Assembly (NCBI RefSeq): GCF_048403405.1
Contig: NZ_CP183129.1
Reading direction: 5' to 3' (one strand)
DNA from: Escherichia coli
Lineage (GTDB): Bacteria; Pseudomonadota; Gammaproteobacteria; Enterobacterales; Enterobacteriaceae
DNA: 64,000 bases
Part shown: positions 18,001-21,000 of the stretch, piece after piece
How positions within the stretch are numbered: position 1 is the first letter of the stretch
How the letters are laid out: each line of letters begins with the position of its first letter
Program-made: the position numbers

Positions 18001-21000
18001 TACAGGGGGACTTCTGCACGATAAGCATTTTCACTGCGCAGATACCAGCTCTCATCACTGTCCCGGTTGAGGGAGTAGTTAAAGGCCCCGGCCTGCAGCC
18101 TGTTCCCCTGGACAAAGGCCCCTTCCTCCGTGGTGGCACCGTTAATGGCTTCCACCACCTGAATACCCTTACCGCTGGTCGCCAGCCCCGACGCACTGTT
18201 GCCGGCGTTCACCAGGTTCAGGATGGTTTTTCCGGTTGCCCTGCCGCCGTCAATGACCAGTCTGTCAGCATTGTTCTGTGCCATATCCGGGCGTACACGC
18301 AGGCTGATGGTGCCATTCTGCCCGTTCAGGTTTTTCACTTTCAGAGTCGCCGGCACAAATGTCCCTGTGCGTGAGGAGGTGAAATGAATCTGTCCGGCAT
18401 GGCTGAGGTCATCCACCACCGACTGCACCGTGGCGTTATCGGGGATATTCCAGGTGGCATCGGAGGCGAGAGTGACATTCGTGGAGTCAATGGCACCGTT
18501 CAGCACAGTGCTGCCGGTCAGCTTCAGGGCTGTACCGCGCTGAGCAATGACATCCGTGGTGACGGTACTGTCGTTCAGCGTCAGCGTGCCTTCATTCAGG
18601 TTGACGGCTTTCTGGGTGAGTGTGGTGTTGCTGACAGTGAGTGTGCCACTTCCTGATTTTTCCACGCTGCCGTTACCGGTGAGAGAGCCTCCCTGCAGGA
18701 GTGCATCGCCTTCACGGATGGTCAGGGTATCGTTGTTCACCGTCTTCCCGGAAAGGGTAAGTATGGCGCCGTTATTCAGCGTGGTGGTGCCCGCCAGTGT
18801 GCCGCCCCTGGCGGTGAACAGTCCGCCATTTACCGTGGTATCCGTGGCCGTATCACCGGCGTTCAGCGTGAATGAACTGCCTTTTTCCAGCATCAGGGCA
18901 TCCGCCTGACCGCCCCCGATACGGAATGCCGTTCCGTCGCTCCGGGTACCACTGACAGCGGCCCCGGAATCGGCCAGCAGTACACCGCCATTCCCCATGG
19001 ATACGGTGGTGGCGGCACCACCGTTGCGGACATCCAGCGTTCCGCCATCATCCACACGGGTATTAGTGGCTGTGTGTCCGCTCAGCACATCCAGACGTCC
19101 GCCATTTTCCAGTACGACATTATCAGCCTTACCCGCCACAACGGAGAATGCTCCCAGGCGGTTTGTGCCGGTGACGGTTGCAGCTGTACTGGTAACCAGT
19201 GCACCGCCCGTGTTCTGGGTGACATCAGACGCTTTACCGCCGGCATTCACCTGCAGCTTTCCTTTCTGGTTGATGGTGGTATGCGCGGCAGTTCCTCCTT
19301 CCTTAATCACCTGCCAGCCATCACGGTTTATCAGCGTCTCTGTTGCCGTGCCACCGTTGTGTACATACTGGTTACCCCCCTCCAGTCGGGTGTTATGTGC
19401 CTCTCCGTGTACCGTCTGGTCACCACCGGCGTAAATGAGGGTGTCCCGTGCCATCCCCGAAGACCAGATAACCTGCCGGCCATTTTTATTGATGGTGGTG
19501 GATTCAGCCGTCCCTCCGACCATCTGACCGCTGGACACATTTTCAGACTCCGGACCACCTTCTGCACCGGTGTTGACGATGGTTCCGGTTGCCAGTCCGC
19601 CATGTTTTATGGTCTGGTAACCATCCTGGTTAATAATTGTACCGGCAGCTTTCCCTCCCCCGTGTACCCACTGCTCACCTCTGTTATCCAGCGTGGTGTT
19701 CACCGCCAGTCCGTTAAGGCTCTGCCCTCCGCCATCACGAATAACCGTATCACTGGCAGTTCCTCCTGCCTGCACAATCTGACGACCATTTGCGGTGACA
19801 GTGGTGTTTCTGCCTGTGCCACCCGCTTTTATCCATTGCCCGCCGGTGTTTTCGTCACTGTCCGGCCCCAGCTCAAGCCCGGTACTGACAGTCACGCCAT
19901 TAGCTGTTCCGGATACAAACTGGTTGTCATGGTTTACCAGTGTTCCGCCATTCACTGTTTCACCCGGGTGCACAACGATGTCAGCAGACAGCACCGGGAG
20001 TGGCGTGACCGCGGCAAGAGACAGTGCAACCGCCACACCGCCACGTTTACCCCGTGCGCGGGCCAGTTCGGAGGCAACCACGAAAGCGCCCGTAATGTGA
20101 TTCCATACCAGCCTGTAGCAGGTATTCAGATGTCGTTTCATCAGCATTTCCTTAATCAGAGTGAGGGTGAATAAAAAAGCCGGTATCCACAGATGTGGAT
20201 ACCGGCAGGTAAAGGGTTACAGTGCCGGAGGTCCGGCTGACGGAAGTTTCTGACGTGTGGCTCTGTTGTTCCCTGAATCTCATGTCTGTGTGTATCTGCG
20301 CACGTTGCTAACAGGAGTTATTATTAGCATAACGATCGATATTAACGATCGGTAAAATAGGTATTGATCGTTTTATTCTATTATCAAGCTATTGCACGGA
20401 CAAGAGAGACAGTAACGAAAACAGCGCTTTTGTGAGCAGACTCAGAGGCAGGGAGGACATCATCCACAACAGGTTCAGAAGAAGATCCAGTTCCATACCG
20501 CGCGGGCAACAGAGACCACTGTGTCACGGACGGCACGCAGAACCGTGCGTGCAACAGAGGCAACACAGACGCTCTCCGCTGTGTCAAATATCCGGTCCAC
20601 CGCACCGGTAAACTGCTCACGGGCCTGAGCGCGGACAGATTCCGTGCGCAGCTCGTCCTGCAGGCGGGTCATCAGGGGACTGGCGGCATGGTCGGGAAGC
20701 GCTGTCATGAGCGCACTGACCAGCGTATCCACTTCCCAGCCGGTGCGGGCCGATACGGCCACAACCGGATGTACAGGCCGGAACAGACGGAATACCGCCT
20801 CCGTTTTTTCGCGAATGTTCTGTGCCTGTGCGGGAGAGGGCTGAATGCCGGCCATATCCCATTCATGGCAGGGCTCCGTTTTGTCGGCCTGTGTCACCAC
20901 AAACAGCACCTGCTGATGTCCGCACTGCAGGATGTGTCGCCAGAAATACTCATCCACAGACAGGGCCCGGTCATCGGCTTTAATCAGCCACAGCACCAGG

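What the first reader, a model, noticed from the sequence alone, without database searches (positions are those of the whole stretch)
20330..20372. Intact three-GATC OxyR/Dam phase-variation switch for antigen 43
Three GATC sites with the spacing of the agn43 regulatory region are present, so this flu allele is predicted to phase-vary by competition between Dam methylation and OxyR binding.
Basis: partly seen in the sequence, partly recalled or inferred. Interest (0 to 1): 0.4.

Follow-up and report, generated by a model that had tools for sequence, protein, structure and literature searches.

The report
Known antigen 43 Dam/OxyR phase switch
The three GATC sites are real and form the textbook methylation-versus-repressor on/off switch in front of the E. 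coli antigen 43 adhesin gene, here in the well-studied uropathogenic (CFT073 agn43a-type) allele, so the finding is correct but ordinary.

Summary
Observation confirmed. GATC sites lie at 20334-37, 20347-50 and 20366-69, with 13 and 19 bp between starts.

They sit on the minus strand, right after a sigma-70 promoter (TTGTCC-17-TAGAAT, 20403-20375). That places them at the 5' end of the 228-nt leader of an intact agn43/flu gene (17019-20141, 1040 aa).

The 333-bp intergenic region is 100% identical to the CFT073 agn43a upstream region and 92% identical to K-12 flu. The spacing is unchanged. Every difference from K-12 inside the 37-bp OxyR site falls on an unspecified consensus position.

Twenty alleles were compared, including very divergent plasmid-borne Cah alleles from Salmonella and Klebsiella. 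All keep the three GATCs at the same spacing, even where the flanks no longer align.

dam and oxyR are each present in 5425 of 5426 complete E. coli genomes.

The interpretation (Dam/OxyR competition giving phase variation) is supported by homology. It has already been published as a general inference for agn43 alleles. Nothing here is new; switching itself cannot be tested in silico.

Side notes:
- The leader is the Rfam IS102/IsrC RNA, with its attenuator terminator.
- IS66 elements cut agn43 off from yeeR-irmA.
- The agn43 coding sequence contains no GATC, against about 9 expected.

The parts
20366..20369 (-). GATC-I, the promoter-proximal Dam site. Its G (20369) is the inferred transcription start.
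   Evidence: One search gives the site. The K-12 isrC annotation starts at the homologous G. 20369 lies 228 nt upstream of the ATG at 20141, matching the 5' RACE distance reported for EC958 agn43 (PMC4807369).
20347..20350 (-). GATC-II, 19 bp downstream of GATC-I.
   Evidence: Invariant in all 20 alleles compared.
20334..20337 (-). GATC-III, 13 bp downstream of GATC-II.
   Evidence: Invariant in all 20 alleles compared.
20335..20371 (.). OxyR tetramer-type site (ATAGnTnnnAnCTAT-N7-ATAGnTnnnAnCTAT), 14 of 20 specified positions matched. It spans GATC-I and GATC-II whole and three of the four bases of GATC-III (20334 lies just outside the 37-bp match).
   Evidence: The score is the same as for the homologous K-12 site. 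The window-versus-K-12 differences (20361, 20352, 20343) all fall at unspecified positions. Binding itself was not tested.
20375..20403 (-). Sigma-70 promoter: -35 TTGTCC (20403-20398), 17-bp spacer, -10 TAGAAT (20380-20375).
   Evidence: The hexamers are identical to K-12.
20166..20371 (-). agn43 leader RNA, equal to Rfam RF00124 IS102/IsrC.
   Evidence: 259.7 bits against a gathering score of 46, full length 1-206. The leader fold has z = -4.4 against shuffles. IsrC is described as the attenuated flu leader in PMC5389530.
20169..20206 (-). Intrinsic terminator (attenuator) in the leader: a 12-bp stem with 8 GC pairs (20206-20179), followed by TTTTTTATTC.
   Evidence: Conserved even in the divergent plasmid Cah alleles.
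17019..20141 (-). agn43/flu coding sequence, 1040 aa and intact. The Shine-Dalgarno AAGGA lies at 20153-20149. The ATG at 20147 listed by the ORF finder is too close to it to be the real start.
   Evidence: PGAP annotates 17019-20141 in the near-identical strain DA33137.
20475..21347 (-). Upstream YeeP-like GTPase gene, whose stop bounds the 333-bp regulatory region.
11551..16840 (-). Two IS66-family elements (extent of their coding sequences only), beginning 178 bp downstream of the agn43 stop. They separate agn43 from the yeeR-like gene (8906-11422) and irmA (8375-8830).
   Evidence: The same arrangement occurs in CFT073, where it abolishes read-through expression of irmA from agn43a (PMC4807369).

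Best explanation
This is the canonical epigenetic ON/OFF switch of antigen 43, in the agn43a-type allele of the pheV island of ST73-like uropathogenic E. coli.

Transcription starts from a sigma-70 promoter at the G of GATC-I. A single OxyR site overlaps the -10/+1 region and all three GATCs. When the three sites are unmethylated, OxyR binds, represses transcription and shields the sites from Dam (OFF). When Dam methylates them first, in the window after replication, OxyR cannot bind and agn43 is transcribed (ON). Each state perpetuates itself, and rare switches occur at replication.

Transcripts then have to read through a leader terminator. The terminated product is IsrC/IS102.

Shown here: the sequence anatomy and its homology to the K-12 switch. 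Inferred from the K-12 and UPEC literature: OxyR binding, differential methylation and switching. Because IS66 elements follow agn43, this copy of the switch probably controls agn43 alone and not yeeR-irmA.
For: - Sites and spacing.
- 100% identity of 20148-20480 to the CFT073 agn43a upstream region and to at least 30 other genomes. 92% identity to K-12 with no indel across the switch.
- The promoter was found by an independent scan.
- OxyR consensus score 14/20, equal to K-12, with substitutions only at N positions.
- Phylogenetic footprint: 17 chromosomal alleles plus CFT073 agn43b and two plasmid Cah alleles all keep the three GATCs at 19/13 bp. In the plasmid alleles the switch segment is 74% identical, against 26-29% for the mid-leader and about 44% upstream.
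- The gene is intact.
- oxyR and dam are each in 5425/5426 genomes.
- The leader is IS102/IsrC.
- Literature for the mechanism: PMC4872104, PMC13337833, PMC2909390, PMC3764049.
- OxyR repression of agn43/irmA in CFT073, EC958 and 83972, and a transcription start 228 bp upstream of the ATG: PMC4807369.
- The published generalisation to allele families: PMC2808357.
Against: - There are no methylation or expression data for this strain.
- The OxyR consensus match is only moderate. Three other places in the window also reach 14/20, so the site is identified by homology, not by score.
- The CFT073 oxyR-mutant evidence read here (IrmA derepression) must come from the agn43b-linked operon, because the agn43a operon is broken by IS66. 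OxyR control of this exact allele is therefore indirect in the papers I could read. The primary papers (Wallecha 2002, Ulett 2007, Kaminska 2010) are not held.
- Two substitutions inside the footprint (C at 20352, A at 20343 on the minus strand) are restricted to the CFT073a/Nissle lineage among the sampled alleles. Their effect is unknown.
Confidence: 0.9

Rival explanations
1. The switch is present by sequence but is locked or strongly biased in this allele. The lineage-specific substitutions in the OxyR footprint, or the strain background, would alter OxyR affinity or Dam access so that expression is effectively constitutive ON or OFF.
For: The minus-strand C at 20352 (2 nt 5' of CGATC-II) and A at 20343 (between GATC-II and GATC-III) occur only in the window, CFT073a and Nissle among 17 sampled alleles. 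The related Nissle allele additionally has a damaged -10 (AAGAAT) and CTAT changed to CCAT, which shows that this lineage tolerates changes in the region.
Against: Both substitutions fall on unspecified positions of the OxyR consensus, and the score equals that of K-12. The promoter hexamers are identical to K-12. The exact 333-bp sequence is maintained unchanged in many genomes, and the gene is intact.
Confidence: 0.06
2. The conserved GATC-II/GATC-III palindrome is kept mainly as an RNA hairpin at the 5' end of the IsrC/agn43 leader, serving RNA stability or attenuation. Dam/OxyR control would then be secondary.
For: The Rfam IS102 consensus structure pairs CGAUCG...CGAUCG. The minimum-free-energy fold of the leader forms the same hairpin. 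The pairs never vary, so conservation alone cannot separate DNA-level from RNA-level constraint.
Against: GATC-I lies outside that hairpin and is equally invariant. The spacing of all three sites fits the OxyR dyad. Genetics and footprinting in K-12 assign the function to the DNA (literature). No covariation supports an RNA constraint.
Confidence: 0.03
3. The three sites are a chance cluster of GATCs in an AT-rich intergenic region with no regulatory role.
For: Triplets within 36 bp are expected 0.71 times per 64 kb under uniform placement, and another one exists at 32252-32267.
Against: The spacing is exact (p about 0.004). The degenerate core pattern occurs 0 times in 100 shuffles. The sites are invariant across 20 alleles, some with unalignable flanks. 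The block is identical to a characterised switch.
Confidence: 0.01

Closest known systems
E. coli K-12 agn43/flu Dam-OxyR phase-variation switch (Henderson & Owen 1999; Haagmans & van der Woude 2000; Wallecha 2002; Waldron 2002)
   Same: Same locus architecture: YeeP-like GTPase gene, promoter, three GATCs, leader, then agn43. Identical -35 and -10 hexamers, identical 19/13 bp spacing, the same 14/20 OxyR consensus positions, and the same leader terminator.
   Different: 8% sequence divergence across the 333 bp. Three substitutions inside the OxyR site, all at unspecified positions. The leader is 228 nt against 222 nt. The passenger domain is 88.9% identical. The island is at pheV rather than in the CP4-44 prophage.
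CFT073 agn43a (c3655, PAI-CFT073-pheV); Ag43a structure PDB 4KH3
   Same: The regulatory region is 100% identical. The protein differs at 4 of 1040 residues. The IS66 insertions downstream are the same. 37 kb of flanking DNA is 99.77% identical.
   Different: The window carries an extra 1.4-kb IS110-family insertion at 2076-3505 and is closer to strain DA33137 and ATCC 25922-like genomes.
Rfam RF00124 IS102 / IsrC sRNA (attenuated agn43 leader; Wallecha 2014)
   Same: Full-length match at 259.7 bits, ending at the conserved terminator.
   Different: None of note. One stem position that is a G-U wobble in K-12 is a Watson-Crick pair here.
Salmonella gtr (P22) and opvAB OxyR/Dam phase-variation switches
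   Same: OxyR and Dam compete at GATCs embedded in OxyR half-sites, giving heritable ON/OFF states (PMC2909390, PMC4856963).
   Different: Those switches use four GATCs in two pairs with alternative activating and repressing OxyR positions upstream of the promoter. Here there is a single repressing site with three GATCs downstream of -10.
pap-type Lrp/Dam switch
   Same: Dam-dependent epigenetic phase variation of a UPEC adhesin.
   Different: That switch needs two GATC boxes 102 bp apart, Lrp sites and PapI. None of these is present here: the nearest additional GATC is at 20484, 118 bp from GATC-I and inside the GTPase gene.

Membership tests
agn43/flu Dam-OxyR phase-variation switch | [quoted passage not shown] | tested here: met
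   All 20 alleles compared share the spacing.
agn43/flu Dam-OxyR phase-variation switch | A single OxyR binding site overlapping the three GATCs and the promoter/+1 region. | tested here: met
   Met at the sequence level. The 37-bp consensus match at 20335-20371 scores 14/20, equal to the homologous K-12 site, and the differences are at N positions only. The consensus score alone is not discriminating. Physical binding was not tested.
agn43/flu Dam-OxyR phase-variation switch | Sigma-70 promoter immediately upstream, with transcription starting at GATC-I. | tested here: met
   TTGTCC-17-TAGAAT at 20403-20375, identical to K-12. The start site is inferred from the K-12 isrC 5' end and from the 228-nt distance reported for EC958.
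agn43/flu Dam-OxyR phase-variation switch | The switch controls an intact Ag43-family self-associating autotransporter gene. | tested here: met
   1040-aa ORF without stops. Pfam domains ESPR, AIDA, AC_1 and Autotransporter. PDB 4KH3 (Ag43a) at E = 0.
agn43/flu Dam-OxyR phase-variation switch | dam and oxyR are present in the same genome. | not testable with these tools
   Neither gene lies in the window. Each is present in 5425 of 5426 complete E. coli genomes, and oxyR and dam mutants of the near-identical strain CFT073 are described.
agn43/flu Dam-OxyR phase-variation switch | The three sites are unmethylated in OFF cells and methylated in ON cells, with heritable, reversible switching. | not testable with these tools
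   This needs methylation-aware sequencing or reporter assays. It is known for K-12.
Rfam RF00124 IS102/IsrC | Covariance-model score above the gathering threshold over the full model. | tested here: met
   259.7 bits against 46, model positions 1-206 of 206, at 20371-20166 on the minus strand.
pap-type Lrp/Dam switch | Two GATC boxes about 102 bp apart flanked by Lrp sites, with a PapI/PapB-like regulator. | tested here: not met
   Only the 36-bp triplet is present. The next GATC is 118 bp away, inside a coding sequence. No pap-like regulators adjoin it.

The most novel reading that the evidence does not exclude
The most novel reading not excluded is that this UPEC lineage's switch is tuned differently from K-12. 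Two features could contribute. First, two lineage-restricted substitutions lie inside the OxyR footprint (minus-strand C at 20352 and A at 20343). Second, the three sites are strikingly isolated: the 3.1-kb coding sequence contains no GATC, against about 9 expected. Together these could change OxyR affinity or Dam/SeqA access, and hence the switching rate or ON/OFF bias. GATC avoidance in the gene body would then be a selected part of the switch, not just island history.
Probability: 0.1. Interest if true: 0.3.

Novelty: already known. Interest (0 to 1): 0.1.

Why it matters
Ag43 drives cell-cell aggregation and biofilm formation, and the Ag43a allele has been linked to long-term bladder persistence (PMC3764049). 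Knowing that the switch is intact tells an experimenter that cultures of this strain will be mixed ON/OFF populations, which is a documented pitfall (PMC3764049). Otherwise this is a correct annotation of a textbook element. It adds no new biology.

Tried and rejected
- **Density as evidence.** GATC density alone is not significant, because a triplet within 36 bp is expected about 0.7 times per window.
- **Terminator-like hairpin on the plus strand.** The hairpin flagged at 20344-20372 is just the dyad formed by GATC-I and GATC-II. It has only 3 GC pairs and faces away from any gene, so I rejected it as a terminator.
- **Scans of the one-genome-per-species collection.** Two exact-pattern scans found nothing, although the first, stricter pattern hits all 18 held loci. 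This fits the report that 99.6% of agn43 genes are in Escherichia and that the gene is accessory (PMC10058404). The scans gave no information on other genera.
- **Plasmid BLAST.** The full-length hits are records of about 1-5 Mb, which look like chromosomal sequence filed as plasmids. The short hits led to divergent Cah alleles, which proved useful.
- **Primary papers.** Wallecha 2002 and 2014, Ulett 2007 and Kaminska 2010 are not held. Two details are therefore from memory: the DNase I footprint at -16 to +42 (which would be 20385-20328 here), and the wording that transcription starts at the G of the upstream GATC.
- **Methylome papers.** The SMRT papers I read give no locus-level agn43 methylation data.
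- **Second GATC triplet.** The triplet at 32252-32267 lies in a transposase remnant with no OxyR-like context. I treated it as chance.
- **pap-type architecture.** Considered and not met.

Full report
**Observation**

The window has GATC at 20334-20337, 20347-20350 and 20366-20369.

A cluster of three GATCs is not remarkable by density alone. With 186 sites in 64 kb, uniform placement gives 0.71 triplets within 36 bp on average. A second, unrelated triplet sits at 32252-32267, in a transposase remnant.

What exceeds chance:
- The exact 13/19 spacing occurs in about 0.4% of random placements.
- A 39-nt degenerate core pattern matches once in the window and in none of 100 shuffles.
- The block is homologous to a characterised switch.

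**Anatomy**

The relevant strand is the minus strand. From upstream to downstream:
- A YeeP-like GTPase gene ends at 20475.
- A sigma-70 promoter, TTGTCC-17-TAGAAT, occupies 20403-20375.
- GATC-I (20369-20366) follows six bases after the -10 hexamer. GATC-II and GATC-III lie 19 and 13 bp further on.
- A conserved leader ends in a strong intrinsic terminator: a 12-bp stem at 20206-20179, then a T-run.
- A Shine-Dalgarno AAGGA (20153-20149) precedes the agn43 ATG at 20141.

The ORF finder's upstream ATG at 20147 lies only one base from the Shine-Dalgarno sequence, and PGAP does not use it.

The leader is a full-length match to Rfam IS102/IsrC, at 259.7 bits against a gathering score of 46. It folds better than all 200 shuffles tested, with z = -4.4.

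In K-12 the annotated isrC RNA begins at the G of GATC-I. The homologous G here, 20369, is 228 nt from the ATG. That is the distance reported by 5' RACE for agn43 in UPEC strain EC958 (PMC4807369). All three Dam sites therefore lie at +1 to +36 of the transcript, directly behind the -10 hexamer.

**The gene**

The ORF at 17019-20141 encodes 1040 aa with no interruption. It has ESPR, AIDA repeats, an autochaperone domain and the autotransporter barrel. Its alpha domain matches the solved Ag43a structure 4KH3 at E = 0. It differs from CFT073 Ag43a at 4 residues and is 88.9% identical to K-12 Ag43.

**Identity of the region**

The 333-bp intergenic region is 100% identical to the CFT073 agn43a (PAI-pheV) upstream region and to at least 30 other genomes, including ATCC 25922 and DA33137. 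A megablast match exists at 2192 places in 1907 of 5426 complete E. coli genomes.

The window is 99.77% identical to CFT073 over 37 kb, apart from a 1.4-kb IS110-family insertion at 2076-3505. It is 99.98% identical to DA33137 over 50 kb.

**Is the switch intact?**

Against K-12 the region is 92% identical, with no indel from the -35 hexamer to beyond GATC-III, and the promoter hexamers are identical.

The classical OxyR consensus (ATAGnTnnnAnCTAT-N7-ATAGnTnnnAnCTAT) aligns best at 20335-20371. It matches 14 of 20 specified positions, exactly as at the homologous K-12 site. The three differences between the two alleles within the site (20361, 20352, 20343) all fall on unspecified positions.

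The score is not diagnostic by itself, because three other places in the window also reach 14/20. The identification rests on homology to the experimentally defined site.

**Comparative evidence**

I aligned the GTPase-agn43 intergenic region from 17 sequences: the window itself plus 16 chromosomal loci spanning the identity range of the BLAST hits. I then added CFT073 agn43b and two plasmid-borne Ag43/Cah alleles, from Salmonella pIndS102_2 and Klebsiella ps01. All 20 keep three GATCs at 19/13 bp.

In the plasmid alleles most of the region is unalignable. Identity to the window is 26-29% in the mid-leader and about 44% upstream of the promoter. The TSS/OxyR/GATC segment is 74% identical and the terminator-to-ATG segment is 82% identical. 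That is a clear phylogenetic footprint on the switch and on the attenuator.

**Trans factors**

Neither dam nor oxyR lies in the window. Each is found in 5425 of 5426 complete E. coli genomes.

**Mechanism**

The mechanism comes from the literature and is inferred here by homology. Unmethylated GATCs allow OxyR to bind, repress transcription and block Dam. Methylated GATCs exclude OxyR and allow transcription. Competition after replication gives heritable states, with switching at about 1e-3 per generation. A dam mutant is locked OFF, and an oxyR mutant or Dam overproduction is locked ON (PMC3764049, PMC4872104, PMC2909390, PMC13337833).

Expression is further gated by read-through of the IsrC terminator (PMC5389530 citing Wallecha 2014).

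OxyR repression of agn43/irmA has been shown in CFT073, EC958 and 83972 (PMC4807369). The IrmA read-out in CFT073 must derive from the agn43b operon, because IS66 elements separate agn43a from yeeR-irmA. The same insertion is present in this window at 11551-16840. In this copy the switch therefore most likely governs agn43 alone.

**Comparison with what is known, and novelty**

This is a member of the agn43 Dam/OxyR switch family. Every sequence-level defining feature was tested and met. The behavioural features, differential methylation and switching, cannot be tested in silico.

[quoted passage not shown] The finding is correct and already known.

It differs from the Salmonella gtr/opvAB OxyR-Dam switches, which use four GATCs and alternative OxyR positions. 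It also differs from the pap Lrp-Dam switch, which has two boxes 102 bp apart.

**Residual uncertainty**

Two substitutions in the footprint are restricted to the CFT073a/Nissle lineage among the sampled alleles. They could alter switching kinetics.

The GATC-II/III palindrome also forms a 5' RNA hairpin, so conservation alone cannot separate a DNA constraint from an RNA constraint.

I give 0.9 to a functional canonical switch, 0.06 to a biased or locked variant, 0.03 to a mainly RNA-level constraint and about 0.01 to chance.

**Side observation**

The agn43 coding sequence contains no GATC at all. A Markov model expects 9.4, and none of 1000 synonymous-codon shuffles had fewer than 3.
- K-12 flu and CFT073 agn43a also have 0. 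CFT073 agn43b has 2 against 10.6 expected.
- The plasmid Cah genes have 1 against about 7 expected.
- The neighbouring 4.8-kb toxin-antitoxin/antirestriction module (3444-8258) is also GATC-free, while the yeeR-like gene is not depleted.

GATC-free stretches in genomic islands, including GI-pheV, are a published general observation (PMC4659465). Whether the isolation of the three regulatory sites matters for the switch is untested.

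Noticed in passing
window 16959-20333 (agn43 CDS 17019-20141); also 3444-8258: The whole agn43 coding sequence has 0 GATC, against 9.4 expected; none of 1000 synonymous-codon shuffles had fewer than 3. 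The same holds for K-12 flu (0) and CFT073 agn43a (0). CFT073 agn43b (2 against 10.6 expected) and the plasmid Cah alleles (1 against about 7) come close. A second GATC-free gap of 4.8 kb covers the cbtA/yeeU/yeeS/antirestriction module, while the yeeR-like gene between them is not depleted. The three switch GATCs are therefore isolated. GATC-free regions in islands are known in general (PMC4659465). Relevance to the switch is untested.
   Followed up: partly
window 11551-16840: Two IS66-family elements start 178 bp downstream of the agn43 stop. They separate agn43 from the yeeR-like gene (8906-11422) and irmA (8375-8830), as in CFT073, where this abolishes agn43a-driven IrmA expression (PMC4807369).
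   Followed up: partly
L019 2192-2565 (Salmonella plasmid pIndS102_2) and L020 2194-2565 (Klebsiella plasmid ps01): In these divergent plasmid-borne Ag43/Cah alleles, four blocks of the upstream region survive: the -10/GATC-I block, the GATC-II/III palindrome, the leader terminator and the ribosome-binding site. The CTAT of the first OxyR half-site is replaced, yet the 19/13 bp GATC spacing is unchanged.
   Followed up: partly
L003 (E. coli Nissle 1917) 401-733: The Nissle 1917 allele is 98.8% identical to the window. Its -10 hexamer is changed from TAGAAT to AAGAAT, and the OxyR half-site CTAT is changed to CCAT. This might weaken both the promoter and repression in that probiotic strain.
   Followed up: no
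window 2076-3505: A 1.4-kb IS110-family insertion (transposase CDS 2349-3368) is absent from CFT073 but present in DA33137-like genomes. It lies between a DUF4942 gene and a DUF957 gene.
   Followed up: no
window 32252-32267: A second tight GATC triplet (GATCGATC...GATC) lies in a transposase pseudogene remnant, about 140 bp upstream of an N-acetylneuraminate lyase gene. It has no OxyR-like context and was judged to be chance.
   Followed up: partly
window 20141-20147: Two in-frame ATGs (ATGCTGATG) occur at the agn43 start in this allele group. K-12 has AAGCTGATG, so only the downstream ATG (20141) is conserved and correctly spaced from the Shine-Dalgarno sequence.
   Followed up: yes
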